A DNA stretch of 64,000 bases. Source: Thermoanaerobaculia bacterium. Its GTDB lineage: Bacteria; Acidobacteriota; Thermoanaerobaculia; Multivoradales; UBA5704. Made by a program: the position numbers and the translations under genes. Positions 13,827 through 64,000 of the stretch are shown here, piece after piece. Each line of letters starts with the position of its first letter. Within the stretch, counting starts at the first letter, position 1. Where the stretch lies: the NCBI GenBank assembly GCA_036264355.1, contig DATARD010000047.1, forward strand, positions 2,763 through 66,762, written 5' to 3'. Under the pieces are notes generated by a model. The model did no database searches and had not been told where the DNA came from. It was given only the letters and a program-made list of their open reading frames with translations.

Positions 13827-13868
13827 GTCGCCTGCTCCTTCAGAGAACAGCGTTTCTCGAAAAGGCCC

Positions 13869-15335: not shown

Positions 15336-15343
15336 GCCGGCGA

Positions 15344-18432: not shown

Positions 18433-18526
18433 CGACGTCTTCTGCCCGAACCTTGAACCGATGTAAAACGGTCGGAGTCTACATCAGAGAGTCCCGAGAG
18501 GGTAGAGCCGACGGCGGCGGGCTCCG

Positions 18527-19224: not shown

Positions 19225-19278
19225 GCTTGCACTCTATCATCCTATCATCCGGGCCGGCTGTAAGCCCCGACGCGCGGA

Positions 19279-22418: not shown

Positions 22419-22666
22419 CGCTCGCCGGGCAACGATCGGGACGAGAAGAGGCTCTGGAGCGGCAAAGTGCGGCTTCGGCCGTTTGGCCGAAGAAGGGCGG
22501 CCACGCAGGGTGCCTTCGGCATCCTGCGGACCGCCCCTACGAGGGCAGGGCAAGGCGGGGACCTGCCGAGCCCTGAACCCCATGGTAGACTCATTCCGCG
22601 GGAAAGCGGACCCCGGTGGCTGGTTGGCGCCACTTCGTGGTGTCCGGAGGAGAAGGCAGGTATCCT

Positions 22667-34650: not shown

Positions 34651-35229
34651 ATGTCTACCCCGGAACAGCCAGAGCCCGCGGTCTCCTTCGACGACTTTCT
34701 GAAAAAAGTCGAGCCGAAGCTCAAGCGCATCCTCGTTCTGTACCGGATCCCGGCGGAAGACTCCGAGGACTTGCTGCAACAGACCCTGCTGAATCTCCTC
34801 TATCAATGGGAGCGGGTCCGCGATCCCGAGTGGTGGCTTCTTGGCACTCTCAAGCGCCATTGCCTCATGTACTGGCGGACCCATCGGCGACGGATCTACT
34901 CCGCGGTGGATTCGACCATCCTGGAATGGCTCTCGGAGCCGGTCGCCCCGTCGCAGGAGCAGACCGATTTCCTCTCCGATCTGGAGAGCATGATCGGCCG
35001 CCTGCCCACGCGCTGCCGCTCGCTGTTGCAACTCCGCTTCCGTTACGGCTATGAAACGCCCGAGGTGGCGAAGCGCCTGGGCTACCGCGCTTCCAGCATC
35101 GGCAAGATCACCAACAGGTGCCTCGATGCGCTGAGCCGCGAGATGCTGCTCGAGGGCCTGGCCGAGGAAACGCCTGACACCGTCGAGGCCGACGAGGCTG
35201 AAGCCGCCCAGTGCGGCAAGGGGAAATGA
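34651..35229 (+). CDS. ECF-type RNA polymerase sigma factor.
   Basis: Sigma-70 region 2 (DSEDLLQQTLLNLLYQW) and region 4 HTH (EVAKRLGYRASSIGKITNRCLDALS). 192 aa. Confidence 0.8.
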   Translation: MSTPEQPEPAVSFDDFLKKVEPKLKRILVLYRIPAEDSEDLLQQTLLNLLYQWERVRDPEWWLLGTLKRHCLMYWRTHRRRIYSAVDSTILEWLSEPVAPSQEQTDFLSDLESMIGRLPTRCRSLLQLRFRYGYETPEVAKRLGYRASSIGKITNRCLDALSREMLLEGLAEETPDTVEADEAEAAQCGKGK

Positions 35230-36806: not shown

Positions 36807-36836
36807 ATCGAGCTGGACCGAGCCGGAAAGGACGGG

Positions 36837-51059: not shown

Positions 51060-52783
51060 TGGTGCGCCGTTTCGTACTGGCGGCCCTGGCTCTTTTCGCG
51101 GCGTCTCTCGCTGTCGCGGCGCCGATCCGTTTCGAGGAGATCGGCGAGAAAGCTGGCGCGCGTTTCGTGCACCACACCCACAAGTTCACCGGCAAGAACG
51201 CCGACGTGCTCGGCATGTTCACCTCCGGCGGTGCCGCGGTCGCGGTGGGCGATTTCGACGGCGACGGCGATGACGATCTGTTCATCACCGACTCCGGCAC
51301 CGGCCGCACCAGCCATCTGCTGCGGAACAACTTCGCCGAGACCGGCAAGCTCACGTTCACCGACGTCACCGCCGAGGCTGGGGTGGGAGGCGGCAACGAT
51401 CCGCATTCGATCGTCTCCGACGCCATCTGGTTCGACGCCGACAACGACGGCCGGCCGGATCTCCTGGTCGCCCGTTTCGGCACGCCGATCCTCTATCACA
51501 ACGAGGGGAACGGAAAGTTCCGTGACGTCACGGCGGCCTCCGGGCTCAACAAATTCGCCAACACGATCGCCGTCATCGCCTTCGATTACGACAACGACGG
51601 CCGTCTCGATCTGCTGTTCGGCAACTATTTTCCGCCCGTCAACCTGATCGATCTCCCGACGCCGCACGTGCTGCCCAACAATCTCGACGCCGCGGACAAC
51701 GGCGGTGGCGTCACCCTGTGGCGGAACGTGACGCCGCCCGGCTCCTCGGATCTCCGTTTCGTCGACGTGACCGAGCAGGCCGGTCTGGCGAAAGACACCC
51801 AGTGGACCCTCGACGTCGGCCACGCCGACTTGAACAACGACGGCTGGCAGGACCTCTATCTGGCCGACGACTACGGCACCGATCATCTATTCATCAATCA
51901 GGGGGGCACCTTCCGCGACGTCACGAAGACGGCGGTGGGCTTCGACACCAAGAAGGGGATGAACGTCGATTTCGCCGACTACGATCACGACGGCTGGCTG
52001 GACATCTATGTCACCAACATCACCGATGAATACATGAAAGAGTGCAACATGCTCTGGCACAACAACCGGGACGGCACGTTCACCGATCTGGCCCGGGAGA
52101 GCGGCACCTGCAATACTCTCTGGGGCTGGGCCGCCAAGTTCGGCGATTTTGATGACGACGGCTGGGAGGATCTGTTCGTGGTGAACGGCCTGCGCTCGGC
52201 GGGGCCGAAGAATTATATCCCGGTGCTGCTCGACATGATCGTCACGCCGGGGATCGATTTCACTGATGTGAACAACTGGCCGCCGATCCATGACATGAGC
52301 TGGAGCGGCCATCAAAAGAAGAAGCTCTTCCGGAATCTGGGAGATCAGACCTTCAAGGAGGTGGCCGCCGAGGCCGGCGTCGCCAACGATCTCGACGGCC
52401 GGGGGATCGGCGTGGCGGACTTCGACAACGACGGCCTGCTCGATCTCTACGAGACCAATGTCGATCAGCCCTCCCTGCTCTATCATGGCGTCTCGGCGCC
52501 GCATGGACACTGGATCGAGCTGACTCTGGTGGGCACGAAGTCGAACCGCGATGCGATCGGCGCCCGTGTGACGGTGCGAGCGGGCGCCAACACCTGGATT
52601 CGAGAGGTGAACGGCGGCAACGGCTACGCGAGCCAGAGCTCGAAGCGGGTGCATGTCGGACTGGGTACCGCCACCAGGATCGATTCGCTGGTGGTGCGCT
52701 GGCCGAGCGGCCGGGTGGAAAGCTTCACGGTGCCGGTCGATAAGATTTCGACGCTCAAGGAAGGGGAGGGAACCGCAAAGTGA
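51059..52783 (+). CDS. Secreted FG-GAP/VCBS plus ASPIC/UnbV protein (CRTAC1-like paralog 2).
   Basis: The ATG overlaps the upstream TGA (tgATG). Signal peptide MVRRFVLAALALFAASLAVAA. FG-GAP loops are present, plus ASPIC/UnbV GGNGYASQSSKRVHVGLG...LVVRWPSGRVE. Confidence 0.75.
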   Translation: MVRRFVLAALALFAASLAVAAPIRFEEIGEKAGARFVHHTHKFTGKNADVLGMFTSGGAAVAVGDFDGDGDDDLFITDSGTGRTSHLLRNNFAETGKLTFTDVTAEAGVGGGNDPHSIVSDAIWFDADNDGRPDLLVARFGTPILYHNEGNGKFRDVTAASGLNKFANTIAVIAFDYDNDGRLDLLFGNYFPPVNLIDLPTPHVLPNNLDAADNGGGVTLWRNVTPPGSSDLRFVDVTEQAGLAKDTQWTLDVGHADLNNDGWQDLYLADDYGTDHLFINQGGTFRDVTKTAVGFDTKKGMNVDFADYDHDGWLDIYVTNITDEYMKECNMLWHNNRDGTFTDLARESGTCNTLWGWAAKFGDFDDDGWEDLFVVNGLRSAGPKNYIPVLLDMIVTPGIDFTDVNNWPPIHDMSWSGHQKKKLFRNLGDQTFKEVAAEAGVANDLDGRGIGVADFDNDGLLDLYETNVDQPSLLYHGVSAPHGHWIELTLVGTKSNRDAIGARVTVRAGANTWIREVNGGNGYASQSSKRVHVGLGTATRIDSLVVRWPSGRVESFTVPVDKISTLKEGEGTAK

Positions 52784-55700
52784 TCTGGCGCCTCGGGCTC
52801 ATCCTTCTTCTCCTGCCGGCCGTGCTCCTCGGAGGCGCGGAGGAGGAGCTCCTCTGGCACCATCGCAATCTCGGCAAAGCGTTCTACGAAAACCCGACAA
52901 CGCAATATGAAGCGGTTGCGGAATTCAAGCAGGCTTTGGAGCTTGCGCCGGACTCTCCCCGCGAGCGCCTCAATTACGGCCTCGCCCTGCTCAAGGCGGG
53001 CAAGGTGGAGGAGGGGATCGCCGAGCTTCAGAAGGTGCAGAAGCAGGCGCCGGAGCTGCCGCACACCTGGTTCAACCTGGGGATCGCGTTCAAAAAGGAT
53101 TCGAAGTACGACAAGGCGATCGTCCAGCTCGAAGGGATGGCTGCCCGCGTGCCCGACGAGCCGGTCACCCACTACAACCTCGGCACGCTCTACAAGCTGA
53201 CCGGCAAACCCGAGGCGTCGCTGCGGGAGTTCGAGACGGCGGCCCGCCTCGGTCCCGATCTTGCCGGTCCTCGGTTTCAGCTTTACAACGCGTATCGCCA
53301 GGCCGGCCGCGCCGAGGAGGCGGCGCAAGAGCTGGAGCGTTTCAAGGCCAACAAAGCGCGCCAGGAAGGCGCCGCCGTCCCCGAGGACCTGGAGTGGAGC
53401 TGGTACGCGGAAGTGCTGGATGACATCACGCCATGGACGGAAAAGTCCGCCGCCGGCAGGAAACCCGCGCCGAAGCTGAAGCTCACGCCCACAGAGCTGG
53501 CCCGCGGCCTCGACTCCGTCACCGCCGGCCTGGCGGTCCTCGACGCGGACGGCGACGGCGTGCCGGACCTGCTCGCCTGGTCGAAGCAGGGAATTCTCCT
53601 TTTCCGGAGCGGAACGGTGAGAATCGAGGCGACCGGTCTCGAAGAGCTGCGCAATGTCATCGCTGTCGTTCCCGGCGATTTCGACAACGACGGCCTGCCC
53701 GATCTCTGCGTGCTCAATCCGTCACCGTCGCTCTGGAAGAATACCGGCGGCGGACATTTCGCACGAGTCGCAGCCACTCTTCCGACAGGACCGTTCGCGG
53801 CGGCGATCTGGCTGGACGTGGATCATGATTACGATCTCGATCTCATTCTGCTCGGCGAGCGCTCGGCCCTGCTGCGCAACCAGGGGGCGGCCGGTTGGAG
53901 CGACGAAACCGCCCGTTTCCCGTTCGCGCGCCGCAAGGCGATCGCCGGCGTCGTGCTCGACGCTGTCTCCGACACCCAGGGGCGGGACCTCGTGGTCTCC
54001 TACGCCGACCGTCCCGGCGTCCTCTACCACGATCGCCTCGGCGGCTTCTATGTGGCGGAGGAGCTGCCCGGTCTGCCCGCGGGAGCGCGTTGGCTGACCG
54101 CCTGGGACACCGACCAGGACGGCTGGACCGATCTCGCGGCCGCCGTGCCCGCGAGGGTCCTCATGCTGCACAACCGGCGGAGCCAATGGGGCAAGCTCGA
54201 GGCGGAGGCCAGTCCCACCGCGTCCGGTCCCTTCGTCTTCGCCGACCTGACCAACCAGGGCGTAAGCGATCTGATGACTCTTCCTGGCATCGTTGCAATC
54301 ACTGCCGCGGATTTCGACGCCGACGGCCGCACCGACCTCGCCACCGTCGGAACCGACGGCATCCTGCGCCGGCTGCATAACGAAACCGTGACCGACAACC
54401 GCTGGATCTCCGTGACGCTCGAAGGAGTGAAAAATCTGAAGCTCGCTCCCGGCGCCTCCGTGGAGGTCAAGGCAGGCGCGAGCTTCCAGAAGCAGGCCTG
54501 GGCCGGGGTCCCGCTCGTTTTCGGCCTGGGGGAGAGACAGAGCGTCGACACGGTCCGCATCACCTGGCCCAATGGCCTCATTCAGAACGAAACGAAGCAG
54601 GCCGCCGGTGCGCACAAATTCAAAGAAGCGCCGCGCCTCTCCGGCTCGTGCCCGATGATCTTCACCTGGGATGGTGCCGGGTTCCGTTTCATCACCGACG
54701 TGCTCGGCGTCGCGCCGCTCGGCGCCAGCTCGGGTGACGGCAATTACTTTCCGGTGGATCATGACGAATACGTGCAGATCCCCGGCGAAGCGCTCGCCGT
54801 CAAGGACGGCAGGTACGAGGTGCGGATCACCGAAGAGCTGCGCGAGGTGTCCTATCTCGACGCGGTCCATCTGCTGGCGCTCGATCATCCGACGGACACA
54901 GAAATCTTTACCAATGACAAGTTCAAGAGCCCGCCGTTTCCCGAGTACAGGCTGTTCGGCGTGCAGCGGCGCATCTATCCCTCGGCCGCCCGCGACGGGA
55001 ACGGGAAAGATGTGCTGCCGCGACTTCTGGCGCGCGACAACACCTATCCGGACGGCTTCCGGCACAACGCCGCCGGAGTCGCCGAGCTGCATACGCTGGA
55101 TCTCGATTTCAAAGGTGCGGCGCCGGACGGCCGCGCTGTGTTGATCCTTTCGGGCTGGGTCGATTGGGCCGACGGCAGCACCTTCCTCGGCGCCGCGCAG
55201 GAATCCAAAGACGGCCTCGTCTTCCCCTATCTTCAGGTCAAGGACGCGGCCGGGCAGTGGCGCACGGTGATCGAGGACATGGGGATGCCTTCGGGCAAGC
55301 CGAAGACGATCGCTGTCGATCTGACCGGCAAGTTCCTCTCTGCCTCGCGGGAGGTGCGCATCGTCACCGGTCTCTGCGTCTATTGGGACGAGATTTTCCT
55401 CGCCGAGCAGAGCGGGCCGCCGGAGGTGATGCAGACCGAGCTCGTTCCACGGACGGCTGATTTACGCTTCCGCGGCTTCTCGCGGCCGGTGATCGATCCA
55501 GAGCGCCGCCAGCCCGAACAATTCGACTATCAGAGCTGGATGCCGGCCGGCGTGGCGGGAATGACGACCTGGAACCCCACGCCCGGCCTCTACACCCGCT
55601 ACGGCGACGTCCGCCCGCTCCTTGCCGGCGTGGACGATCTGCTGGTGATCCTGGGCTCCGGTGACGAGGTCCGCCTGACCTTCGACGCAGCGGCCCTGCC

Positions 55701-55947
55701 GCCGCTCCAAGCGGGTTGGCGCCGCGACTTCCTGCTCCTGGTCGACGGCTGGGCCAAGGACGCCGACGCCAACACCGCCTTCTCGCAGACCGTGGAGCCG
55801 CTCCCGTTCCACGGCATGTCCAGGTATCCCTATCCGCCGGAGGAGCATTTTCCAAACGACTCGATCCATACCCTCTACCGGGAGATGTACAACACCCGTC
55901 CCGCGCTGCGCCTGGTCCACCCGTTGCGCGGTCAGGAGGAGCCATGA
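52780..55947 (+). CDS. Secreted N-terminal TPR + FG-GAP + ASPIC/UnbV-like protein with a ~400-aa uncharacterised C-terminal extension (paralog 3).
   Basis: A GTG start overlaps the upstream stop. Signal peptide, then TPR helices, FG-GAP loops (DADGDGVPDLL, DFDNDGLPDL, DFDADGRTDL) and ASPIC-like GASFQKQAWAGVPLVFGLG...VRITWPNGLIQ. The novel C-terminal region starts at CPMIFTWDGAGFRF. Confidence 0.7.
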   Translation: MIWRLGLILLLLPAVLLGGAEEELLWHHRNLGKAFYENPTTQYEAVAEFKQALELAPDSPRERLNYGLALLKAGKVEEGIAELQKVQKQAPELPHTWFNLGIAFKKDSKYDKAIVQLEGMAARVPDEPVTHYNLGTLYKLTGKPEASLREFETAARLGPDLAGPRFQLYNAYRQAGRAEEAAQELERFKANKARQEGAAVPEDLEWSWYAEVLDDITPWTEKSAAGRKPAPKLKLTPTELARGLDSVTAGLAVLDADGDGVPDLLAWSKQGILLFRSGTVRIEATGLEELRNVIAVVPGDFDNDGLPDLCVLNPSPSLWKNTGGGHFARVAATLPTGPFAAAIWLDVDHDYDLDLILLGERSALLRNQGAAGWSDETARFPFARRKAIAGVVLDAVSDTQGRDLVVSYADRPGVLYHDRLGGFYVAEELPGLPAGARWLTAWDTDQDGWTDLAAAVPARVLMLHNRRSQWGKLEAEASPTASGPFVFADLTNQGVSDLMTLPGIVAITAADFDADGRTDLATVGTDGILRRLHNETVTDNRWISVTLEGVKNLKLAPGASVEVKAGASFQKQAWAGVPLVFGLGERQSVDTVRITWPNGLIQNETKQAAGAHKFKEAPRLSGSCPMIFTWDGAGFRFITDVLGVAPLGASSGDGNYFPVDHDEYVQIPGEALAVKDGRYEVRITEELREVSYLDAVHLLALDHPTDTEIFTNDKFKSPPFPEYRLFGVQRRIYPSAARDGNGKDVLPRLLARDNTYPDGFRHNAAGVAELHTLDLDFKGAAPDGRAVLILSGWVDWADGSTFLGAAQESKDGLVFPYLQVKDAAGQWRTVIEDMGMPSGKPKTIAVDLTGKFLSASREVRIVTGLCVYWDEIFLAEQSGPPEVMQTELVPRTADLRFRGFSRPVIDPERRQPEQFDYQSWMPAGVAGMTTWNPTPGLYTRYGDVRPLLAGVDDLLVILGSGDEVRLTFDAAALPPLQAGWRRDFLLLVDGWAKDADANTAFSQTVEPLPFHGMSRYPYPPEEHFPNDSIHTLYREMYNTRPALRLVHPLRGQEEP

Positions 55948-58730
55948 AGCTGACTCGATGGATCACGATTCTGTTTCTCGTGCTGCTGGTGAACACCGCC
56001 TACCTGGCGGCTTTCGCCGCGCCGACGGTGTTCTACATGGCCAACGTGCTGCTGCACCTCGTTCTCGGGGTGGCGCTGGCGATCGCCGGAGCGATCCTGC
56101 TCTGGCGGCGCCCTGAGCTGCGCACCGGTCTCACCGCAGCTATCGTCCTTTTCGGCGTCGCCCTCGCCGCCGGTCTCTGGCTGACGATCGAGGGCAATCT
56201 CCTGCAATACCGCTGGGTGCTGTGGACCCATATCGCGTCCGCCGGGCTGGGAGTCGCCGCTCTCGCCGTCTGGTCGGTGCGGCGAGCCTCTCCATCTTTC
56301 CGGCGAGCGCTCACCGCGGCCATCGCCCTGCTCGTGCTGCTGCCGGCCGGGGCAGCTCTCTGGCGGCGCAGCCATCCGAATCCGGACGACCGCATCCACA
56401 ATCCGCTGATCGTTCCCGCCTCGATGCAGGAAGAGGGCGGCGGACCGAAGTCGCCGTTCTTCCCCTCGTCGGCGAAGACCAACGTCGGCGGCATCATTCC
56501 GTCGAATTTCTTCATGGACTCGGCCACCTGCGGCGAGTGTCACAAGGACATCTATGCGCAGTGGAACAGCTCGGCGCACCACTTCGCGTCGTTCAACAAT
56601 CAGTTCTACCGCAAGTCGATCGAATACATGCAGGACACGGTCGGCCCGCAGCCGAGCAAATGGTGCGCCGGCTGCCACGATCACGCGGTGTTCTTCAACG
56701 GCCGTTTCGAGCGCCCGATCAAGCAGCAGCTCGACACTCCCGAAGCGCACGCCGGTCTCGCCTGCACCTCCTGCCATGCCATCACCCACGTGGACAGCTC
56801 GATGGGCAATGGCGGCTTCACGATCGAATATCCGCCGCTCCATGAGCTGGCCAACAGCAAGAACCCGGTGATCAAGGCGGCGGATCACTTCCTCACCTAT
56901 CTCGATCCGGAGCCGCACCGGCGGACGTTCATGAAGCCGTTCATGAGGATGGACTCGGCCGAGTTCTGCGCCTCCTGCCACAAGGTCCATCTCGACGTGC
57001 CGGTCAACTCGTACCGCTGGTTCCGCGGCTTCAACGACTATGACAACTGGCAGGCGAGCGGCGTGTCGGGGCAGGGCGCGCGTTCCTTCTATTATCCGAA
57101 GGCGACCAAGACCTGCGCCGACTGCCACATGCCGCTGGTCGATTCGCAGGACCCCGGCAACCGCGGTGGCCAGGTGCACTCGCACCGCTTCCCGGCGGCC
57201 AACACGGCGCTCGCCTTCGTCAACCACGACACCAAACAGATGGAGACGGAGGAGAAGTTTCTGCAATCGGGTTTTATCACAGTGGATCTGTTCGCCGCGT
57301 CGCCGGTGGAGGAGGGGAAGGGGGAGACGCCGATGCTGCGGCGGGCGGCCGCGGACGCCTCCGGTCCCAAGCTGATGACCACGTTTGCCGTCGGCGAGGA
57401 GGCGGAGCAGAGCGGGCCGGTGGTGATCCGGGACGTGGGGAAAGTCGCCGCGCCGCTTGACGTGGCCGGTCCCACCCTCAAGCCGGGCTCGACGGTGCGG
57501 GTCGACGCGGTGGTGCGCACGCGGACGATCGGTCACTTTTTCCCCGGCGGCACGGTGGACGCGTTCGACGTCTGGCTGGAGCTGCAGGCGAAGGACGCGA
57601 CCGGGAAAGTGATCTTCTGGAGCGGCCAGGCCGAGGACGACGGAAAGGGGCCGGTCGAGCCGGGCGCGCACTTCTACCGTTCCTACGCACTCGACGGCGA
57701 AGGAAACCCGATCAACAAGCGCAACGCCTGGCAGGCGCGCAGCGTGCTCTACACGCGGCTGATCCCGCCCGGCGCCGCCGACGTCGTGCACTACCGCATG
57801 CAGATCCCGGCCGACGCCCAGGGTCCGGTTACCCTGACCGCCAAGCTCAACTATCGCAAATTCGCCTGGTATTACACCCGGTTCGCCTATGCCGGCCAGC
57901 CGAAGCCCGGGCAGTCGCCGGAGCTGATCTCGGCCCACTTCAACAATCTCGAATACTCCTTCGACAAAGCGAACATTCCGGCCAACGTCTCGGGACAGAT
58001 CAAAGGGGAGATCCCGGATCTGCCGATCCTCGTGCTGGCCAAGGCGGAGACGACGCTGGAGCTGGGAGACGGCAAAGCCGATTGGAAGCCGGCAGTGCGC
58101 AAGGAGGATCGCGAACGGTGGAACGACTGGGGGATCGGATTGCTCCTCCAGGGCGATTTGAAGGGCGCCGAATACGCGTTCCAACGGGTGACCGAAGCCG
58201 AGCCGGGTTACGCCGACGGCTGGCTCAACGTCGCCCGCGCGCTGATCCGCGAAGGCGAGGTGGAGGCGGCCAAGCCCTACGTGCAAAAGGCCCTCGCCAT
58301 CGATCCGAGCCTGGGGCGCATCTACTTCTTCAAGGCGATGATCGAAAAAGCGGACGGGGACTACGACGCCGCGCTCGCCTCCCTGCGCACGGTGGAGTCG
58401 AAATATCCGCGCGACCGGGTGGTGCTCGATCAGATTGCGCGTATCCTATTCCTCAAGCGGCAGTACCGCGAGGCGGTGGCGGTGTTGGAGCGGGTCTGTA
58501 TGATCGATCCTGAAGATTTGCAGATGCACTATACGGCGATGCTCTGCTGGCGCGCCCTGGGTGACAGCGCGAAGGCGGCGCGCGAGGAGGCGCTGTTCCG
58601 CCGTTTCAAGGCCGAGGAGTCGTCGCAGGCGATCACCGCGAAACAGCGGATGATCAGCCCGGAGGATAACAACGAGCGGCAGCAGATCCACGACCACGAG
58701 AGCGTGCCGCTGCGGGAGAATCGATCATGA
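55944..58730 (+). CDS. Membrane-anchored pentaheme c-type cytochrome with an N-terminal five-TM domain and C-terminal TPR repeats.
   Basis: Five CxxCH motifs (CGECH, CAGCH, CTSCH, CASCH, CADCH). Five hydrophobic helices in the first ~230 aa. The C-terminal ~250 aa are TPR-like. The ATG overlaps the upstream stop (ATGA). The track start at 55716 is over-extended. Confidence 0.8.
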   Translation: MKLTRWITILFLVLLVNTAYLAAFAAPTVFYMANVLLHLVLGVALAIAGAILLWRRPELRTGLTAAIVLFGVALAAGLWLTIEGNLLQYRWVLWTHIASAGLGVAALAVWSVRRASPSFRRALTAAIALLVLLPAGAALWRRSHPNPDDRIHNPLIVPASMQEEGGGPKSPFFPSSAKTNVGGIIPSNFFMDSATCGECHKDIYAQWNSSAHHFASFNNQFYRKSIEYMQDTVGPQPSKWCAGCHDHAVFFNGRFERPIKQQLDTPEAHAGLACTSCHAITHVDSSMGNGGFTIEYPPLHELANSKNPVIKAADHFLTYLDPEPHRRTFMKPFMRMDSAEFCASCHKVHLDVPVNSYRWFRGFNDYDNWQASGVSGQGARSFYYPKATKTCADCHMPLVDSQDPGNRGGQVHSHRFPAANTALAFVNHDTKQMETEEKFLQSGFITVDLFAASPVEEGKGETPMLRRAAADASGPKLMTTFAVGEEAEQSGPVVIRDVGKVAAPLDVAGPTLKPGSTVRVDAVVRTRTIGHFFPGGTVDAFDVWLELQAKDATGKVIFWSGQAEDDGKGPVEPGAHFYRSYALDGEGNPINKRNAWQARSVLYTRLIPPGAADVVHYRMQIPADAQGPVTLTAKLNYRKFAWYYTRFAYAGQPKPGQSPELISAHFNNLEYSFDKANIPANVSGQIKGEIPDLPILVLAKAETTLELGDGKADWKPAVRKEDRERWNDWGIGLLLQGDLKGAEYAFQRVTEAEPGYADGWLNVARALIREGEVEAAKPYVQKALAIDPSLGRIYFFKAMIEKADGDYDAALASLRTVESKYPRDRVVLDQIARILFLKRQYREAVAVLERVCMIDPEDLQMHYTAMLCWRALGDSAKAAREEALFRRFKAEESSQAITAKQRMISPEDNNERQQIHDHESVPLRENRS

Positions 58731-60406
58731 AGCCTGCTCTGCCCGCTTTTTTCCTCGCCGCCTGTGGCCTGGCCGCGCTCGTGGCCCGCGGCGCGGCGCC
58801 CGCCGCCGAGAGCACTGTCCACTTTACGGACATCACAGCGTCAGCGGGTATCCGGTTCATCCACAACAGCGGCCGGGCGGGCAAGAAATATCTGCCCGAG
58901 ACGCTGGGCTCCGGCGCCGCTTTTTTCGACGCCGACGGCGACGGCTGGCTCGACATCCTGCTGATCAACGGCCGCGACTGGCAGCCCAAAGGCCGCAAAT
59001 CTCTGCCGGCGCTCTATCACAACAACCACGACGGCACGTTCACCGACGTCACCCGGGGGAGCGGCCTCGACGTCGAGCTCTACGGTCTCGGCGTCGCCAT
59101 CGCGGACTACGACAACGACGGCCGGGAGGACGTCTACATCACCGCGCTCGAAGGCGACCGTCTCTATCACAACGAGGGACATGGCAAGTTCAAGGACGTG
59201 ACCGCGTCCGCGGGGATCCGGAACGCGTCGTTCGGTACCAGCGCCGCATGGCTCGACTACGACCGCGACGGCAAGGCCGACCTGTTCGTGGCGAACTACG
59301 TGCAATGGAGCGCGGAGAAGGACCTCTGGTGCTCGCTCGACGGCGCGAGCAAGTCCTACTGCACGCCGGAGTCGTACAAGGGGAGCTCGTCGAAGCTCTA
59401 CCACAATCTCGGCAACGGCAAGTTCGAGGACGTCAGCCAGAAGGCCGGGGTGGGCGATCCGACCAGCAAGTCGCTCGGCGTCGCGGTGCTCGACGTCAAC
59501 GGCGACGGCTGGCCGGACCTCTTCGTGGCCAACGACACGCAGCCCAACAAGCTCTATATCAACCAGAAGAACGGCACGTTCTCTGAGCAGGGCTTGCAGG
59601 CCGGTGTCGCTTATGGCGAGGACGGCGTCGCGCGCGGCGCGATGGGGGTGGACGCGGCGGACTACGACCGCTCGGGCCGCCAGCACCTGCTGGTGGGCAA
59701 CTTCTCGAACGAGATGCTGGCGCTCTACCACAACGAGGGGAACGGCGTCTTCGTCGACGAGGCGCCGGCCTCGGCGGTGGGGCGGGAGAGCCTGCTGACC
59801 CTCACCTTCGGCGTGTTCTTCTTCGACTACGACCTCGACGGCCGGCCGGACATCTTCGCCGCGAACGGCCACATCGAGGAGGAGATCGGCCGCGTGCAGC
59901 CGCGGGTGCACTACCGGCAGGCGCCGCTGGTGTTCCGCAATCTGGGGGGCGGCAAGTTCGCGCCGGTGACCGCGCAGCTCGGGCCGGATCTCGCCAAGCC
60001 CATGGTGGCCCGCGGCGCGGTCTACGGCGACATCGATCACGACGGCGATCTCGACGTGCTGGTGACCACCAACGGCGGCCCGCCGCACCTCTACCGCAAC
60101 GACGGCGGCAACCGCAACCACTGGCTCTCCGTGCGCACCGTGGGGACGAAGTCGACGCGTGACGGCCTGGGAGCGGTGGTGCGGGTGACGAGCGCCCTGG
60201 GCAAGCAGTGGGGGATGGTGCGCAGCGGCTCCTCCTACTGCTCGCAGAGTGATCTCGCCCTCACTTTCGGGCTTGGCCGCGACAGCCGGGTGGCGGCGGT
60301 GGAGGTGGAGTGGCCGAGCGGCGTCCGGCAGCGCTTCGCCGATCTGCCGGTGGACCGCCTGCTCCTCATCGACGAAACGAAGGGGATCGTCGCCGGGGGG
60401 AGGTGA
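58727..60406 (+). CDS. Secreted FG-GAP/VCBS plus ASPIC/UnbV protein (CRTAC1-like paralog 4).
   Basis: ATGA overlap with the cytochrome gene. Signal peptide MKPALPAFFLAACGLAALVARGAAPA. FG-GAP loops (DADGDGWLDILL, DYDNDGREDVYI, DYDRDGKADLFV). ASPIC/UnbV core GSSYCSQSDLALTFGLG...VEVEWPSGVRQ. Confidence 0.78.
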   Translation: MKPALPAFFLAACGLAALVARGAAPAAESTVHFTDITASAGIRFIHNSGRAGKKYLPETLGSGAAFFDADGDGWLDILLINGRDWQPKGRKSLPALYHNNHDGTFTDVTRGSGLDVELYGLGVAIADYDNDGREDVYITALEGDRLYHNEGHGKFKDVTASAGIRNASFGTSAAWLDYDRDGKADLFVANYVQWSAEKDLWCSLDGASKSYCTPESYKGSSSKLYHNLGNGKFEDVSQKAGVGDPTSKSLGVAVLDVNGDGWPDLFVANDTQPNKLYINQKNGTFSEQGLQAGVAYGEDGVARGAMGVDAADYDRSGRQHLLVGNFSNEMLALYHNEGNGVFVDEAPASAVGRESLLTLTFGVFFFDYDLDGRPDIFAANGHIEEEIGRVQPRVHYRQAPLVFRNLGGGKFAPVTAQLGPDLAKPMVARGAVYGDIDHDGDLDVLVTTNGGPPHLYRNDGGNRNHWLSVRTVGTKSTRDGLGAVVRVTSALGKQWGMVRSGSSYCSQSDLALTFGLGRDSRVAAVEVEWPSGVRQRFADLPVDRLLLIDETKGIVAGGR

Positions 60407-60490: not shown

Positions 60491-60769
60491 ATGAACGATC
60501 AAGAAGTTTCCGCCAAGATCAAGCAGATCATCTCGAACATCGCGGGTCTCGACCCGCAGAAGATTCCCGACGGATCTTCGCTGCGCGACGATCTGAAGCT
60601 CGATTCCCTGTCGCTGCTGGAGATCGGCGTCGACGTGGACCTGGCCTTCCAGCTCAACCTTCCCGACGAGCGCTACAAGGAGATCGCGACGCTGCCGCAG
60701 ATGGTGCATCTGGTGCAGGAGCGCCGGAGTGAGATCGCGGCCGGTCAGGTCGAGGTCGTCCACCGATGA
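60491..60769 (+). CDS. Acyl carrier protein.
   Basis: 92 aa with the phosphopantetheine attachment motif DLKLDSLSLLEIGVDVD. It lies immediately upstream of a KS pair. Confidence 0.8.
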   Translation: MNDQEVSAKIKQIISNIAGLDPQKIPDGSSLRDDLKLDSLSLLEIGVDVDLAFQLNLPDERYKEIATLPQMVHLVQERRSEIAAGQVEVVHR

Positions 60770-62001
60770 GCCCATCCGGTGTGCGTGTCGCGGTGACGGG
60801 CCTCGGGCTCGTCACCCCGGTGGGCATTGGTCGCGACGAGGTGTGGCAGGGGTTGCTCGATGGGCGTAGCGGATTTGCGCCCATCGAGTCGTTCGATTCG
60901 AGCCGCTTTCCGGTCCACCTCGGCGCCGAGGTGCGGGGCTTCCACCCCGAGCTCTGGCTGCGCATCCTCGATCCCAGCCAGCTCGGCCGCGCCTCGCAGC
61001 TCGCCGCCGCCGCGGCCCGCATGGCGCTCGACGATTCCGGTATCGCCGGCATCGCCGGGATTGCCGGGATCGACGCCGCGCGGGCCGGCGTTGTCATGGG
61101 CACCACCTCCGGCGAGCCGCGCGAGGTGGAGCGCTTCGACGACCGCTACCTGGCCGGCGGGCTCGACGGGCTGGGGCCGGAATTCATCGGCCTCTATCCC
61201 TGCCACATGATCGCCGTCCACGTGGCCCGCGAGGTCGGCTTCGCGGGCCCGGTCACCATGATCCCCACCGCCTGCGCGGCCGGCAACTACGCCATCGCCC
61301 ACGCCTTCGACCTGCTCCGCGCCGGGCGCGCCGACGTCATGCTGGCCGGCGGCGCCGACGCCTTTTCGCGCATCACCTACGCCGGCTTCTCCCGCCTCGG
61401 TGCCATCGCTCCGGAAAGGTGCCAGCCGTTCGACCGCAATCGGAGGGGGATGATCCCCGGCGAGGGCGCCGGCGTGCTGGTCCTGGAGCCGCTCCCGCGT
61501 GCGCTCGCCCGCGGCGCTCGCGTCTACGCCGAGGTGGCCGGCTACGGCCTTTCCTGCGACGCGCATCACATGACCGCCGCGCATCCGGAAGGGGACGGCG
61601 CGGCGCGCGCCATGCAGCGCGCGCTCGCCGACGCCGGCATCGGCCCGGAGGACGTTTCCTACATCAGCGCGCACGGCACCGGCACGCCCACCAACGACCG
61701 CCTGGAGATCCTGGCGGTGCAGCGCGTCTTCGGCGCCGCGGCGGCGAAGACGCCGATGAGCTCCATCAAGTCGATGATCGGCCACACCATGGGCGCCGCC
61801 TCGGCCATCGAGGCGGCGGTCTGCTCGCTGGCGGTTTCGACCGGCCGCATTCCGCCCACCATGAACCTGGAGGAGCCGGACGGCGACCTCGACTACGTGC
61901 CCAACCACGCCCGCGAGCACGACGTGCGGGTGGCGATGAACAACGCCTACGCCTTCGGAGGCAACAACGCCTCGGTGATCTTTCAGCGAGCCGGAGCCTG
62001 A
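60766..62001 (+). CDS. Beta-ketoacyl-ACP synthase (KS-alpha, FabF/type-II-PKS-like, active).
   Basis: Catalytic Cys in PTACAAGNYA, His in SAHGTGTPTND, His in KSMIGHTMGAAS. ATGA overlap with the ACP gene. Contains a GIAGIAGIAGI tripeptide repeat. Confidence 0.85.
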   Translation: MSPSGVRVAVTGLGLVTPVGIGRDEVWQGLLDGRSGFAPIESFDSSRFPVHLGAEVRGFHPELWLRILDPSQLGRASQLAAAAARMALDDSGIAGIAGIAGIDAARAGVVMGTTSGEPREVERFDDRYLAGGLDGLGPEFIGLYPCHMIAVHVAREVGFAGPVTMIPTACAAGNYAIAHAFDLLRAGRADVMLAGGADAFSRITYAGFSRLGAIAPERCQPFDRNRRGMIPGEGAGVLVLEPLPRALARGARVYAEVAGYGLSCDAHHMTAAHPEGDGAARAMQRALADAGIGPEDVSYISAHGTGTPTNDRLEILAVQRVFGAAAAKTPMSSIKSMIGHTMGAASAIEAAVCSLAVSTGRIPPTMNLEEPDGDLDYVPNHAREHDVRVAMNNAYAFGGNNASVIFQRAGA

Positions 62002-62002
62002 G

Positions 62003-63232
62003 ATGCGGCGGGTCGTCATCACCGGTGCCGGTGCCCTCTCTCCCATCGCCGACTCCCCGGCGGCTCTCCACACCGCGCTGTGCGCCCAGACGAGCGCGCT
62101 CAAGGAGGTCGAGCTGTTCCCACTCGACACGGCCGGCAACGTCGCCGACCTCGGTCCCCGCCACGCCGGCGAGATCCGGCCGTTCGAGCCCAAGGACTAT
62201 CTGGGCGAACGCAACCTTCGGCCGGTGGACCGCACCGCCCGCTTGCTTCTGGTGGCCGCGCAGCAGGCGCTCGAGTCCTCCGGCTGGACCGCCGAAAAGC
62301 GTGCCGAGCGCGAGGTCGGCCTGGTTCTCGGCACCACCTTCTGCAGCGTGCGCACGATCGCCGAGTTCGACCGCCGCGCGCTGCAGCTCGGCCCCTCCTA
62401 CGCGAGCCCCATGGACTTCGCCAACAGCGTGATCAACGCCGCGGCAGGGCAGGCGGCTATCTGGCACGACCTGCGCGGCGTCAACTCGACGGTGGCGGCC
62501 GGCGAGGCCTCGGGTCTCCTCGCCTTGGCCTACGCGGCCGACCTGATCCGCGGCGGCCGTGCCGACGCGGTCCTCGCCGGCGGCGCCGAGGAGCTCTGCT
62601 TCGAATCGTTCGTCGGCCACCAGCGCGCCGGCCGCCTCGGCAGCGTCTGCACCGTGCCGTTCGACGCCCGGCGCGACGGTTTCGCGCTCGCCGAGGGAGC
62701 GGCGATGCTCTTCCTCGAAGAGGCCGAATCCGCCGCGGCCCGCGGTGCCCACGTGCTGGCCGAGATCTGCGGCTACGCCGAGTCCTTTGCCGGAGACGGG
62801 GAGGAGGCAAGCACCGCCGACTTCGCCGACGCCGTCGCCCGCGCCGTCCGCTTGGCGGTCGCCGACGCCGGCATCGTGCCGGCGGATCTGGGTGTCCTCA
62901 GTCTGTCGGCCAACGGCGGCGTGCGGTCCGACCGCGCCGAGGCGCTCGGAATCGCCGCCGCGGGCCTCGCGGACGTGCCGGCCACCGCCATCAAAGCCAT
63001 GCTCGGCGAAGCCCTCGGCGCTTCCGGAGCGTTCCAGGCCGTCGATCTCCTGGGCCTCTTCGCCGACGGTGTGCTGCCGGGCGTCCTGGGATTCCAGGCG
63101 GGCGACGACGGTTTCCCCCTCTCCGGCATCGCCGCCCAGACCCGCACCCTGGATCATCAACCGCGCTTCGGTCTGCTGCACTCGGTCGCCTGGGACGGCC
63201 AGTGCTGCGCGGTGATCCTGGAGGCAAAGTGA
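62003..63232 (+). CDS. KS-beta / chain-length-factor-like ketosynthase homolog lacking the active-site Cys and His residues.
   Basis: Thiolase-fold KS homolog. The active-site position reads STVAAGEAS (no Cys), and the HGTGT/GH motifs are absent. It begins 1 nt after the KS-alpha stop, which suggests a heterodimer partner. Confidence 0.75.
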   Translation: MRRVVITGAGALSPIADSPAALHTALCAQTSALKEVELFPLDTAGNVADLGPRHAGEIRPFEPKDYLGERNLRPVDRTARLLLVAAQQALESSGWTAEKRAEREVGLVLGTTFCSVRTIAEFDRRALQLGPSYASPMDFANSVINAAAGQAAIWHDLRGVNSTVAAGEASGLLALAYAADLIRGGRADAVLAGGAEELCFESFVGHQRAGRLGSVCTVPFDARRDGFALAEGAAMLFLEEAESAAARGAHVLAEICGYAESFAGDGEEASTADFADAVARAVRLAVADAGIVPADLGVLSLSANGGVRSDRAEALGIAAAGLADVPATAIKAMLGEALGASGAFQAVDLLGLFADGVLPGVLGFQAGDDGFPLSGIAAQTRTLDHQPRFGLLHSVAWDGQCCAVILEAK

Positions 63233-64000
63233 AGCCTCACCCCCCTGACCCCCCTCTCCCATCGCCCCCCCATCCGCCGGGAGAGGGGGGAAAAGACTCG
63301 CATGCTCACGCTTGTCTCCCCTCTCCCGGGGAAAGGGCGGGGGGAGCCGGGAGAGGGGCCGGGGGTGAGGGCGCCTTTCTCGTCCCCCGCCTGGAGCAGC
63401 AGGGGTACGGCGAAGACGACGTCGCCGCCCGCCGCCGCTGGATCGAGGAGCAGACCGGCGCCGCGTTGACCCACGTCGGCGCCTGCACGCTCCCCGGCGA
63501 GCAGATGCAGGGAAACATCGAGAATCCGGTCGGCGCCGCGCAGGTCCCGCTCGGCGTCGCCGGGCCGCTCCTCGTTCACGGCGAGCACGCCGAGGGAACC
63601 TATTACGTGCCGCTCGCCACCACCGAAGGCGCCCTGGTGCGCTCCTACGAGCGGGGGATGGTGGCGATCACCCGCTCCGGCGGCGCCACCGTCCGCATCC
63701 ACGTCGACGAGAACCGGGTGAGCCCCGTCTTCGTCTGCGCCGACGTCGCCGCCGCGGCCGACCTCGCCCGCGCGCTTCCGGGATGGATCGACGAGATCCG
63801 TGCCGCCGCCGAGTCGACCACCCGCCACGGCAAGCTGCTGCGGCTGGAGGCCCGCCCGCTCGGCCGCGAGGTCATGGTCAGCTTCTGTTTTTCGACCGGC
63901 GACGCGCACGGCATGAACATGATCGTCAAGGCCACGGACGAAGCCTGCCGCCGGCTCCTGGAGCACCAGGCTCGCGGCATGGCAACCCGCTACTACATCT
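63229..64000 (+). CDS. Class-I HMG-CoA-reductase-family catalytic domain protein. The N-terminus is P/G-rich, and the gene is partial, running off the window end.
   Basis: NIENPVGAAQVPLGVAGPLLVHGEHAEGTYYVPLATTEGALVRSYERGMVAITRSGGATVRIHVDENRVSPVFV and DAHGMNMIVKATDEAC match HMGR class I motifs (ENVIGYMPIPVGVAGPL...VPMATTEGCLVAS...DAMGMNM). The frame is open from GTG 63229, overlapping the CLF stop (GTGA), with no stop before position 64000. Confidence 0.7.
   Translation, partial: MKPHPPDPPLPSPPHPPGEGGKDSHAHACLPSPGERAGGAGRGAGGEGAFLVPRLEQQGYGEDDVAARRRWIEEQTGAALTHVGACTLPGEQMQGNIENPVGAAQVPLGVAGPLLVHGEHAEGTYYVPLATTEGALVRSYERGMVAITRSGGATVRIHVDENRVSPVFVCADVAAAADLARALPGWIDEIRAAAESTTRHGKLLRLEARPLGREVMVSFCFSTGDAHGMNMIVKATDEACRRLLEHQARGMATRYYI

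What the first reader, a model, noticed from the sequence alone, without database searches (positions are those of the whole stretch)
60491..64000. ACP + KS-alpha + KS-beta (CLF-like) immediately followed by an HMG-CoA-reductase-family gene: possible HMGR-type reductive release in a type-II PKS/FAS-like pathway
The ACP has an intact phosphopantetheine site. The KS has the full Cys-His-His triad. The KS homolog lacks the Cys and His residues (CLF-like). Then a class-I HMGR catalytic-domain protein (VPLATTEGALV, DAHGMNM motifs) starts with a GTGA overlap and follows a P/G-rich linker. HMGR chemistry is a four-electron reduction of a thioester to an alcohol. An HMGR paralog embedded in a KS/CLF/ACP operon suggests reductive off-loading of an ACP- or CoA-bound polyketide or fatty acyl chain to an aldehyde or alcohol. 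That is an unusual pairing. Together with the upstream acyltransferase and glycosyltransferases it may specify a glycolipid or aryl-polyene-like product.
Basis: partly seen in the sequence, partly recalled or inferred. Interest (0 to 1): 0.7.

Follow-up and report, generated by a model that had tools for sequence, protein, structure and literature searches.

The report
HMGR-like reductase in ACP/ketosynthase lipid operon
A gene annotated everywhere as the cholesterol-pathway enzyme HMG-CoA reductase sits in a conserved acidobacterial operon with a carrier protein and a ketosynthase pair closely related to the unsolved anammox "ladderane" genes, and most likely reduces a carrier-bound acyl chain to an alcohol for an unknown lipid.

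Summary
The four genes are real: ACP (60491-60769), an active FabF-like KS (60766-62001), a triad-less KS partner (62003-63232) and the 5' two thirds of a class-I HMGR-fold gene that runs off the window. Two details are wrong. The "P/G-rich linker" is a REP-like double hairpin inserted at the HMGR start. The glycosyltransferases lie 17 kb upstream behind unrelated genes.

The operon is strongly conserved in Acidobacteriota and a few other phyla: ACP-KS-KSmut-HMGR-CrtI-like flavoenzyme, usually followed by a PlsC-type acyltransferase and ABC1 kinases. No mevalonate genes are nearby.

The HMGR clade keeps the catalytic Glu/Lys/Asp/His/Asn. It has lost Arg590 and Lys735, which hold the HMG moiety, and has a rebuilt cis-loop. 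Its nearest relatives are non-canonical HMGR domains fused to adenylation-carrier didomains, acyl-CoA-binding proteins or kinases.

The KS pair and the flavoenzyme are the closest known relatives of the anammox "ladderane Cluster I" amxFabF2/amxFabFmut/PDH.

Best reading (about 0.55): a non-mevalonate, four-electron acyl-thioester reductase that off-loads an ACP-bound chain into a lipid pathway. The product is unknown. All evidence is computational.

The parts
60491..60769 (+). Acyl carrier protein (92 aa), phosphopantetheine site DSL
   Evidence: Pfam PP-binding E=5.8e-8. Best PDB match is AcpM at 42 bits; anammox amxACP (7auf) scores only 29 bits. An ACP is present upstream of the HMGR in 48/67 orthologous loci.
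60766..62001 (+). Active FabF-like ketosynthase (KS1), amxFabF2-like
   Evidence: Both KS domains are present. Cys/His/His are invariant in 54/54 orthologues. Best PDB hit is 9s5h_B at 453 bits, 50% identity by BLASTP. The next best hit is Iga11 (6kxd) at 340 bits.
62003..63232 (+). Catalytically dead KS partner (KS2, CLF-like or amxFabFmut-like)
   Evidence: KS fold. Cys->Glu, His->lost, His->Glu. Best PDB hit is 9s5h_C at 198 bits. It is 31% identical to the second KS of the anammox contig L082.
63235..63370 (.). REP-like palindromic element: two tandem hairpin units inserted at the KS2/HMGR junction
   Evidence: The element is absent from orthologous junctions.
63229..64000 (+). 5' part of the class-I HMGR-fold reductase. 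The conserved sequence starts near 63379 (LVPRLEQQGY). The only canonical in-frame start upstream is GTG 63229. The gene is cut by the window end after about 60% of its length.
   Evidence: PF00368 E=1.7e-47 and TIGR00533 E=7.7e-48. Relatives share 60-84% identity; full-length gene models are about 404-406 aa.

Best explanation
The window ends inside a conserved lipid or secondary-lipid operon. The dedicated ACP is loaded with malonate. The KS1/KS2 heterodimer has one active subunit and one dead, chain-length-factor-like subunit. It primes itself by decarboxylating malonyl-ACP and elongates a short or medium acyl chain, as shown for its anammox homologue amxFabF-het. Housekeeping FAS enzymes presumably process the beta-carbon. 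The CrtI-like flavoenzyme encoded just past the window end modifies the chain, by desaturation or oxidation. The HMGR-fold enzyme uses the conserved Glu/Lys/Asp/His machinery and NAD(P)H to reduce the acyl thioester, via the hemithioacetal and aldehyde, to a primary alcohol. This replaces the SDR-type reductase domains that usually do this job. A PlsC/DAGAT-type acyltransferase and ABC1-type kinases then esterify or phosphorylate the product into a membrane or envelope lipid.

Shown: gene content, conservation of the operon, residue patterns, homologies, fusion architectures.
Inferred: heterodimer formation, ACP rather than CoA as the thiol carrier, alcohol rather than aldehyde as product, order of steps, lipid nature of the end product.
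For: 1. Operon conservation. Among 67 clade HMGR genes with enough upstream DNA, 47 have KS1, 46 have KS2, 48 have an ACP and 40 have all three. In 4 loci an ACP sits directly next to the HMGR without any KS. The CrtI-like gene is adjacent in 63/77. A PlsC-type acyltransferase follows in 41/62 and an ABC1 kinase in 19/62.
2. Not a mevalonate enzyme.
- Glu559, Lys691, Asn755, Asp767 and His866 are invariant in 83 members.
- Arg590 is replaced by Val/Ile/Met, Lys735 is variable, and the cis-loop is changed (S684F, G685S, N686G, D690E). These are the residues that bind the HMG moiety; Lys735 makes the carboxylate salt bridge (PMC9500038).
- P0002 scores 312 bits against the TIGR00533 cut-off of 441.8.
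- No MVA genes occur in the window or among conserved neighbours.
- Cultivated Acidobacteria use the MEP pathway (PMC5462960).
3. Family context. In a crude NJ tree only 9 of 149 sequences carry the canonical Thr-Arg590 / Lys735 / SGNxCxDKK signature, and they group together. Among 67 long non-canonical representatives, 9 are fused to AMP-binding domains (6 also with PP-binding), 2 to ACBP and 17 to APH/EcKL kinases. One A-T-HMGR sits among GpsA, PlsC, DAG-kinase and GPAT-like genes.
4. The KS pair and the flavoenzyme are specific homologues of anammox Cluster I. KS1 is 50% identical (429-453 bits). KS2 scores 198 bits with the same His->Glu change. The flavoenzyme is 37% identical (295 bits) to the anammox PDH, against 61 bits to CrtI. 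Gene order is the same. The anammox heterodimer decarboxylates malonyl-ACP and forms acetoacetyl-ACP (bioRxiv 10.64898/2026.05.19.726425).
Against: - There is no biochemical or genetic datum for any member of this clade, and no product is known.
- The cluster has no KR/DH/ER, thioesterase or phosphopantetheinyl transferase, so the chain chemistry is guesswork.
- An Arg or Lys occurs at position 734 or 735 in 52/83 members, and Arg is fixed at 589. An anionic substrate is therefore not excluded.
- Ser565, Arg568 and Arg871 (which I recall as contacting CoA in HMGR; not checked here) are conserved, which would suit a CoA thioester as well as an ACP thioester.
- 14/67 clade genes have no KS or ACP within 4.5 kb.
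- The window ACP is not specifically amxACP-like.
- The loci examined are the 80 best matches, which biases them towards close relatives. The tree is only neighbour-joining on the 150 representatives nearest to the query.
Confidence: 0.55

Rival explanations
1. It is an ordinary HMG-CoA reductase (EC 1.1.1.34) that makes mevalonate for isoprenoids. The operon neighbours are coincidental or supply acetoacetyl units.
For: Full class-I fold and all catalytic residues are present. The match to archaeal HMGR 6HR7 is 277 bits. Every public annotation says HMG-CoA reductase (NADPH).
Against: - Lys735 and Arg590 are lost and the cis-loop is rebuilt.
- The score is below the TIGR00533 equivalog cut-off.
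- No HMGS or GHMP kinases occur in 64 kb of window or among conserved neighbours in about 80 loci.
- The phylum uses the MEP pathway.
- Synteny with ACP, KS and the flavoenzyme is tight.
Confidence: 0.07
2. The enzyme is a non-mevalonate HMGR-fold oxidoreductase that acts on a free CoA thioester, stops at the aldehyde, or works in the oxidative direction (alcohol or aldehyde to acyl-CoA, as catabolic HMGRs do). It therefore feeds the KS system instead of off-loading it.
For: Ser565, Arg568 and Arg871 (which I recall as contacting CoA; not checked here) are conserved. HMGR chemistry is reversible (established knowledge: Pseudomonas mevalonii class II enzyme). 14/67 clade genes lack a nearby ACP or KS, and some follow a DUF1295/steroid-reductase-like membrane protein. 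ACBP-HMGR fusions exist.
Against: An ACP is the most constant upstream partner, and in 4 loci it is directly adjacent without any KS. A-T-HMGR fusions place the domain where terminal reductases sit. No acyl-CoA ligase, transferase or thioesterase is conserved in the operon.
Confidence: 0.2
3. The substrate is a short 3-hydroxy or 3-oxo thioester made directly by the KS pair, for example acetoacetyl- or 3-hydroxyacyl-ACP. The product is a 1,3-diol or hydroxy-aldehyde building block (a 'carboxylate-less mevalonate analogue') rather than a fatty alcohol.
For: The residues around the HMG C3-OH/C1 end are kept or conservatively changed (D690E invariant, Lys691, Asn755, Glu559), while the carboxylate end is lost. 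The anammox homologue makes acetoacetyl-ACP and prefers C6-C8 probes. The cluster has no KR or DH.
Against: This is purely inferential. No such diol lipid is known from these phyla, to my knowledge. It is a variant of the best explanation, not an alternative to reductive off-loading.
Confidence: 0.13
4. It is a resistance or decoy copy of HMGR that protects the producer of a statin-like polyketide made by the KS pair.
For: Self-resistance HMGR copies occur in fungal statin clusters (established knowledge).
Against: The hosts have no evident mevalonate pathway to protect. The HMG pocket that statins occupy is altered. The family is very large, with more than 7000 clusters at 90% identity, and is syntenic across phyla.
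Confidence: 0.02

Closest known systems
Class I HMG-CoA reductase (EC 1.1.1.34), e.g. Methanothermococcus thermolithotrophicus 6HR7 and human 1DQ8/2Q1L
   Same: Same fold and length (about 390-405 aa catalytic domain). Glu559, Lys691, Asn755, Asp767, His866, the DAxGxN and TVGGGT motifs are conserved. Scores are 277 bits to 6HR7 and 189 bits to the human enzyme.
   Different: Arg590 and Lys735 are lost. Fixed changes are A564R, N567E, M588N, T589R, S684F, G685S, N686G and D690E. The score is below the NCBIfam equivalog cut-off. The gene is embedded in an ACP/KS operon and has no MVA partners.
Anammox 'ladderane Cluster I' (K. stuttgartiensis kuste3603-3608: amxACP, amxFabZ, FabF, non-canonical FabF, phytoene-desaturase homologue, B12-radical SAM); amxFabF2/amxFabFmut heterodimer (very probably PDB 9S5H/9S5I)
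   Same: Gene order is ACP-KS-KSmut-flavoenzyme. KS1 is 50% identical and is the top PDB hit. KS2 is the top hit of the dead subunit, with the same His->Glu change. The flavoenzyme is 37% identical (295 bits) to the anammox PDH, against 61 bits to true CrtI (PMC4790861).
   Different: FabZ and the radical-SAM enzyme are absent. An HMGR-like reductase is inserted between KSmut and the flavoenzyme. A PlsC-type acyltransferase and ABC1 kinases are added. The ACP is not amxACP-like (29 bits). The hosts are Acidobacteriota, not anammox Planctomycetes.
Type II PKS KS-alpha/CLF pairs (actinorhodin 1TQY; ishigamide Iga11/Iga12 6KXD) and aryl-polyene ApeO/ApeC
   Same: An adjacent active and inactive KS pair plus a discrete ACP. 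Iga11 is the second-best structural relative of KS1 at 340 bits.
   Different: The dead subunit has Glu or a variable residue where the CLF has its conserved Gln. The cluster has no cyclase/aromatase, KR, DH or adenylating starter enzyme. The match to the act KS/CLF is weaker (231 and 91 bits).
SDR-type terminal reductase (R) domains of NRPS/PKS, carboxylic acid reductases and fatty acyl-ACP/CoA reductases
   Same: The proposed job is the same: NAD(P)H-dependent 2- or 4-electron reduction of a carrier-bound thioester to an aldehyde or alcohol. A-T-HMGR fusions mimic the A-T-R architecture.
   Different: The fold is unrelated (HMGR fold rather than Rossmann SDR). This is analogy only.

Membership tests
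Class I HMG-CoA reductase (mevalonate-forming, EC 1.1.1.34) | HMG-CoA_red fold / Pfam PF00368 | tested here: met
   E=1.7e-47 for the window fragment. Full-length relatives cover profile positions 2-368.
Class I HMG-CoA reductase (mevalonate-forming, EC 1.1.1.34) | Catalytic Glu559, Lys691, Asp767, His866 (plus Asn755) | tested here: met
   Invariant in 83 clade members. Only Glu559 lies inside the window; the others are inferred from relatives with up to 84% identity.
Class I HMG-CoA reductase (mevalonate-forming, EC 1.1.1.34) | HMG-binding residues: Lys735 salt bridge to the carboxylate; Arg590, Ser684, Asp690, Lys692 polar contacts (PMC9500038) | tested here: not met
   Arg590 is replaced by V63/I13/M6/L1. 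Position 735 is H35/R24/A6/S4/T4 and others. Position 684 is Phe, with the SG motif shifted by one residue. D690E is found in 83/83. K692 is replaced by R67/H11/Q4.
Class I HMG-CoA reductase (mevalonate-forming, EC 1.1.1.34) | Passes the curated equivalog threshold (NCBIfam TIGR00533, 441.8 bits) | tested here: not met
   P0002 scores 312.4 bits. P0002 is an N-terminally short gene call, which accounts for only part of the shortfall.
Class I HMG-CoA reductase (mevalonate-forming, EC 1.1.1.34) | Genomic company of HMG-CoA synthase and mevalonate-pathway kinases/decarboxylase | tested here: not met
   None occur in the 64-kb window or among ORFs conserved around the clade. Whole-genome absence could not be tested with these tools. 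The literature says cultivated Acidobacteria use the MEP pathway.
Anammox Cluster I-type FAS (amxFabF2/amxFabFmut system) | Active KS closest to amxFabF2 | tested here: met
   9s5h_B is the top PDB hit at 453 bits, 50% identity. A metagenomic contig 91% identical to 9s5h_B (L082) has the kuste3603-3607 gene order.
Anammox Cluster I-type FAS (amxFabF2/amxFabFmut system) | Adjacent dead KS with mutated Cys/His/His | tested here: met
   9s5h_C is the top hit at 198 bits. Cys->Glu or variable; second His->Glu in 55/55.
Anammox Cluster I-type FAS (amxFabF2/amxFabFmut system) | kuste3607-type phytoene-desaturase homologue next to the KS pair | tested here: met
   It lies beyond the window end but is adjacent in 63/77 orthologous loci. 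It is 37% identical (295 bits) to the L082 PDH, against 61 bits to CrtI 4DGK.
Anammox Cluster I-type FAS (amxFabF2/amxFabFmut system) | amxFabZ and the B12-dependent radical SAM enzyme in the cluster | tested here: not met
   Neither is among the conserved ORFs around the acidobacterial operon.
Anammox Cluster I-type FAS (amxFabF2/amxFabFmut system) | amxACP-type carrier protein | tested here: inconclusive
   The best PDB hit is AcpM at 42 bits. 7auf (very probably the anammox amxACP) scores 29 bits.
Type II PKS minimal system (KS-alpha/CLF/ACP) | CLF with conserved Gln in place of the active-site Cys | tested here: not met
   The position holds E20/A13/S6/T6/I4/N3/V2/Q1 across 55 orthologues.
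Type II PKS minimal system (KS-alpha/CLF/ACP) | Accompanying cyclase/aromatase/KR tailoring genes | tested here: not met
   None occur in the conserved neighbourhood. The three SnoaL-like genes in the window lie 44 kb away on the other strand.
Aryl-polyene (APE) cluster | Adenylating starter enzyme, KR, DH pair, LolA/MMPL export genes, glycosyl- and acyltransferases in one cluster | tested here: not met
   Only ACP, the KS pair and a downstream PlsC-type acyltransferase are shared.

The most novel reading that the evidence does not exclude
HMGR-fold proteins form a large, unrecognised family of four-electron acyl-thioester reductases. They occur free-standing in ACP/KS operons, and fused to A-T didomains, ACBP or kinases, including in an archaeal-looking fatty-acid/glycerolipid locus. 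The acidobacterial operon is a sister of the anammox ladderane Cluster I core. It would then offer a non-anammox, possibly culturable route to finding out what the amxFabF-type KS/KSmut pair and the kuste3607-type flavoenzyme actually do.
Probability: 0.45. Interest if true: 0.85.

Novelty: new variant of a known kind. Interest (0 to 1): 0.72.

Why it matters
1. More than 7000 protein clusters (at 90% identity) are annotated as HMG-CoA reductase (NADPH). They would be mis-annotated, which distorts inferences about mevalonate-pathway distribution in soil bacteria.
2. This would add a second, structurally unrelated solution to reductive chain release in FAS/PKS-like systems. It would also be a new enzymatic activity for a heavily studied drug-target fold.
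3. Ladderane biosynthesis is a long-standing open problem. The organisms cannot be manipulated genetically, and Cluster I is described as unique to them. A widespread homologous ACP-KS-KSmut-flavoenzyme core in Acidobacteriota gives comparative and possibly experimental leverage.
4. Acidobacteriota dominate soils, and their lipids are used as proxies. An unassigned, conserved lipid operon is therefore relevant.

Tried and rejected
- Literature. Nine full-text searches found no paper that describes an HMGR-like gene in a KS/ACP operon or an 'HMGR-like' reductive release domain. The library holds open-access papers only, so absence is weak evidence.
- antiSMASH 'ladderane' calls in non-anammox bacteria are reported without analysis (PMC7298704). 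The loose resemblance to ladderane genes is therefore not entirely new. I could not run antiSMASH.
- PDB code 9S5H is not cited in the preprint text. Its identification with the B. fulgida heterodimer is an inference from the 91%-identical contig L082.
- I looked for a cultured host with a second protein search and a cluster look-up. Only metagenome and MAG sources came back.
- Upstream glycosyltransferases as part of the cluster: rejected, because unrelated genes intervene and they are not conserved in relatives.
- P/G-rich linker: rejected.
- 'Solitary' clade members as possible true MVA genes: their neighbours are peptidases, MacB, a DUF1295/steroid-reductase-like membrane protein and GlnRS, with no MVA genes.
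- Structure prediction and fold search were not run. The active site lies at a dimer interface and the tools return no coordinates, so they would only have re-confirmed the HMGR fold.
- My first identity estimate for KS1 against 9s5h_B (58%) was wrong. BLASTP gives 50%.

Full report
OBSERVATION

ORF listing and translation show four co-directional, tightly packed genes at the window's right end:
- ACP, 60491-60769. It has an AGGAGG ribosome-binding site and an ATGA overlap with the next gene.
- KS1, 60766-62001.
- KS2, 62003-63232.
- An open frame from GTG 63229 that runs off the window at 64000.

Pfam and NCBIfam confirm PP-binding, two FabF-like ketosynthases and the first half of a class-I (NADPH-type) HMG-CoA-reductase fold (PF00368 positions 2-182 of 368, E=1.7e-47; TIGR00533 E=7.7e-48). 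KS1 has Cys/His/His. KS2 has Glu, no His, and Glu at the three positions.

Two details of the finding do not hold.

First, the 'P/G-rich linker' (63235-63370) is two tandem GC-rich hairpin units.
- The pattern has 2 matches here against 0 expected.
- The RNA fold is -101.6 kcal/mol, z = -4.9.
- Orthologues have no such stretch and start 10-25 residues before the conserved DLVPRxxxQGY.
- The same element occurs intergenically beside the HMGR gene in L003 and L027.
It is a REP-like insertion. Whether it is translated from GTG 63229 is unknown.

Second, the GT2 and GT4 genes lie at 40.9-43.3 kb. HU, MerR, a GSDH-like gene, a nitrilase and about 13 kb of FG-GAP/ASPIC/TPR genes separate them from the operon. 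No upstream acyltransferase was found.

CONSERVED OPERON

A relative with 84% identity (P0002) was used to scan one genome per GTDB species. At least 533 relatives were found, mostly in Acidobacteriota (Thermoanaerobaculia, Holophagales, Pyrinomonadaceae, Blastocatellia, Vicinamibacteria, Solibacter, 'Angelobacter'). There are outliers labelled Latescibacterota, Poribacteria, Nitrospinota and Gemmataceae.

A tblastn census of 81 loci gives the canonical order ACP-KS1-KS2-HMGR-CrtI-like FAD enzyme. A PlsC/DAGAT-type acyltransferase and one or two ABC1/UbiB-type kinases usually follow. A LuxR-type response regulator or an ECF sigma factor is sometimes present, and a pair of FG-GAP/ASPIC genes is sometimes inserted.

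Counts:

| Neighbour of the clade HMGR gene | Loci with it / loci with enough DNA |
|---|---|
| KS1 upstream | 47/67 |
| KS2 upstream | 46/67 |
| ACP upstream | 48/67 |
| All three | 40/67 |
| ACP directly adjacent, no KS | 4/67 |
| No KS or ACP within 4.5 kb | 14/67 |
| CrtI-like flavoenzyme adjacent | 63/77 |
| PlsC-type acyltransferase | 41/62 |
| ABC1 kinase | 19/62 |

The window is cut inside the fourth gene. The flavoenzyme, acyltransferase and kinases are predicted to lie just beyond base 64000.

IS IT A MEVALONATE ENZYME?

No HMG-CoA synthase or GHMP-kinase gene occurs in the 64-kb window, among ORFs conserved around the clade, or beside 'solitary' clade members. Cultivated Acidobacteria encode the MEP pathway (PMC5462960).

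I aligned 83 clade sequences with the human and Methanothermococcus enzymes and 134 representatives.
- Glu559, Lys691, Asn755, Asp767, His866, Ser565, Arg568 and Arg871 are invariant in the 83 clade members.
- Arg590 becomes Val/Ile/Met, with an Arg fixed one position earlier.
- Lys735 is replaced by variable residues.
- The cis-loop is rebuilt: S684F, G685S, N686G, D690E; K692 is mostly Arg.
- A564R and N567E are fixed.

According to PMC9500038, Arg590, Ser684, Asp690, Lys691, Lys692 and Asn755 make the polar contacts to the HMG moiety, and Lys735 makes the salt bridge to its carboxylate. P0002 also fails the TIGR00533 equivalog cut-off (312 vs 441.8 bits).

The catalytic machinery for thioester reduction is therefore kept, while the pocket for the HMG carboxylate end is not. 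One caveat applies. A basic residue is present at position 734 or 735 in 52/83 members, so an anionic substrate is not excluded.

WIDER FAMILY

An exhaustive HMMER search of 1.84 billion representatives found 794 clusters at E<=1e-30. The clade's own representative is 66% identical. The next representatives are at most 58% identical.

In a crude neighbour-joining tree, only 9 of 149 sequences carry the canonical signature (Thr-Arg590, Lys735, SGNxCxDKK). These include the human and archaeal enzymes, and they group together. All the rest lack Lys735.

Pfam domains fused to the 67 long non-canonical representatives:

| Fused domain | Representatives |
|---|---|
| APH/EcKL kinase | 17 |
| PilZ | 14 |
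| AMP-binding (6 of these also with PP-binding) | 9 |
| Acyl-CoA-binding protein (ACBP) | 2 |
| DUF3419 | 2 |
| AfsA hotdog | 1 |
| Thioesterase-like | 1 |

An A-T-HMGR architecture puts the HMGR domain exactly where terminal thioester reductases sit. One such protein lies in an archaeal-looking contig between GpsA-type G3P dehydrogenase, PlsC, DAG kinase, Zn-ADH and a GPAT-like acyltransferase. Another lies next to UbiA, an MMPL transporter and DUF3419. The recurrent kinase fusions parallel the ABC1 kinases of the acidobacterial operon.

THE ANAMMOX CONNECTION

The best solved-structure match of KS1 is 9s5h_B (453 bits; 50% identity by BLASTP). The best match of KS2 is 9s5h_C (198 bits). Both are well ahead of ordinary FabF, Iga11/12 and the act KS/CLF.

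A metagenomic contig (L082) whose KS is 91% identical to 9s5h_B has the order ACP-FabZ-KS-dead KS-flavoenzyme. This is the order of Kuenenia kuste3603-3607 (PMC4790861). 9S5H is therefore very probably the Brocadia fulgida amxFabF2/amxFabFmut heterodimer described in bioRxiv 10.64898/2026.05.19.726425.

That preprint reports three things. The two proteins work only as a heterodimer. The heterodimer decarboxylates malonyl-ACP and forms acetoacetyl-ACP. It prefers C6-C8 probes over C16.

The L082 flavoenzyme is 37% identical (295 bits) to the acidobacterial one, which scores only 61 bits against true CrtI. The kuste3607 protein showed no CrtI activity in E. coli.

The acidobacterial operon therefore shares an ACP-KS-KSmut-flavoenzyme core with ladderane Cluster I. 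It lacks FabZ and the radical-SAM enzyme, and it has gained the HMGR-like reductase, an acyltransferase and kinases. The ACP itself is not specifically amxACP-like. antiSMASH 'ladderane' calls in non-anammox soil bacteria have been noted without explanation (PMC7298704).

MECHANISM PROPOSED

1. The KS1/KS2 heterodimer self-primes and builds a short or medium chain on the dedicated ACP.
2. The flavoenzyme modifies the chain.
3. The HMGR-fold enzyme reduces the thioester with 2 NAD(P)H to a primary alcohol, possibly a 1,3-diol if the 3-hydroxyl is retained.
4. The acyltransferase and kinases turn this alcohol into a lipid.

Steps 1 and 2 rest on homology to a partly characterised system. Step 3 rests on residue conservation, synteny and fusion architectures. 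Step 4 rests on synteny only. ACP or CoA as the carrier, and alcohol or aldehyde as the product, are both open.

VERDICT

It is not a housekeeping HMGR (about 0.85). It is a thioester reductase of this pathway (about 0.65). The overall mechanism as stated stands at about 0.55. The system is a new variant of known kinds, built from known folds in a new role and a new operon. No member has been characterised, to my knowledge.

Noticed in passing
window 63235-63370; also L003 11071-11241 and L027 564-1155, 11048-11088: A REP-like GC-rich palindromic element (CCCTCTCCC...GGGAGAGGG units of about 70 nt, often tandem). In three genomes it sits at the borders of the HMGR gene. In the window it lies in frame with the HMGR start.
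   Followed up: partly
window 47292-60406 (+); L014, L022, L023, L032, L034, L036, L048, L049, L052, L060, L076: An array of FG-GAP/UnbV_ASPIC (CRTAC1-like) proteins with TPR, plus a cytochrome-c554-like/TPR protein, lies directly upstream of the operon. In Pyrinomonadaceae/Blastocatellia-type loci and in one MAG labelled Poribacteria, a pair of such genes is inserted between the flavoenzyme and the acyltransferase. This may be a functional link, or it may only reflect how abundant this family is in Acidobacteriota.
   Followed up: partly
L163/L164 8001-11132 and flanks; L162 8001-11015: An adenylation-carrier-HMGR fusion (1043 aa) lies in a contig with archaeal translation genes (aEF-1beta, aIF5B-like, Trm1). 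It is flanked by GpsA-type G3P dehydrogenase, PlsC, DAG kinase, Zn-ADH and a GPAT-like acyltransferase. This is a bacterial-type glycerolipid locus in an apparent archaeon. A second fusion lies next to UbiA, MMPL and DUF3419.
   Followed up: partly
L047 9232-9852, L053 4091-4750 (and the 219-aa ORF at L041 8935-9594): In L047 and L053, clade HMGR genes that lack the KS operon are preceded by a co-directional DUF1295/steroid-5-alpha-reductase/PEMT-like membrane protein. The equivalent L041 ORF had no Pfam hit. This is another lipid-type context.
   Followed up: no
L026, L030, L057, L062, L072: Some genomes carry two clade HMGR paralogues 5-9 kb apart. One follows ACP-KS-KS. The other follows an ACP or KS and precedes the flavoenzyme, acyltransferase and ABC1 kinase.
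   Followed up: no
window 13305-16529 (-) and 16576-18483 (-): Three SnoaL-like polyketide-cyclase-fold genes and a 503-aa ORF without a Pfam hit lie next to an ABC exporter.
   Followed up: no
window 2-2287 (-), 19264-22095 (+), 22589-23362 (+): A TIR-TPR protein, a NACHT-FGE-sulfatase fusion and a Uma2-family endonuclease, which look like defence or STAND-signalling genes.
   Followed up: no
window 2308-8652 (+) and 10132-13233 (+): A 2114-aa Kelch-repeat plus peptidase-C25 protein, and a stop-to-stop frame in which an Asp/Arg-hydroxylase domain is followed by DUF4915. It overlaps the MacB frame, so the start is uncertain.
   Followed up: no
window 34651-38174 (+): An ECF sigma factor, a BTAD-domain protein and a second, unrelated flavin amine oxidase lie in a row. 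This oxidase is not the CrtI-like partner of the operon.
   Followed up: no
L083, L086, L088, L089 (metagenome contigs): Further KS pairs are 47-51% identical to KS1 by tblastn, with a second KS-like gene about 1.7-2.8 kb upstream rather than downstream. They are neither anammox-type nor acidobacterial-type, which suggests more variants of this KS/KSmut system.
   Followed up: no
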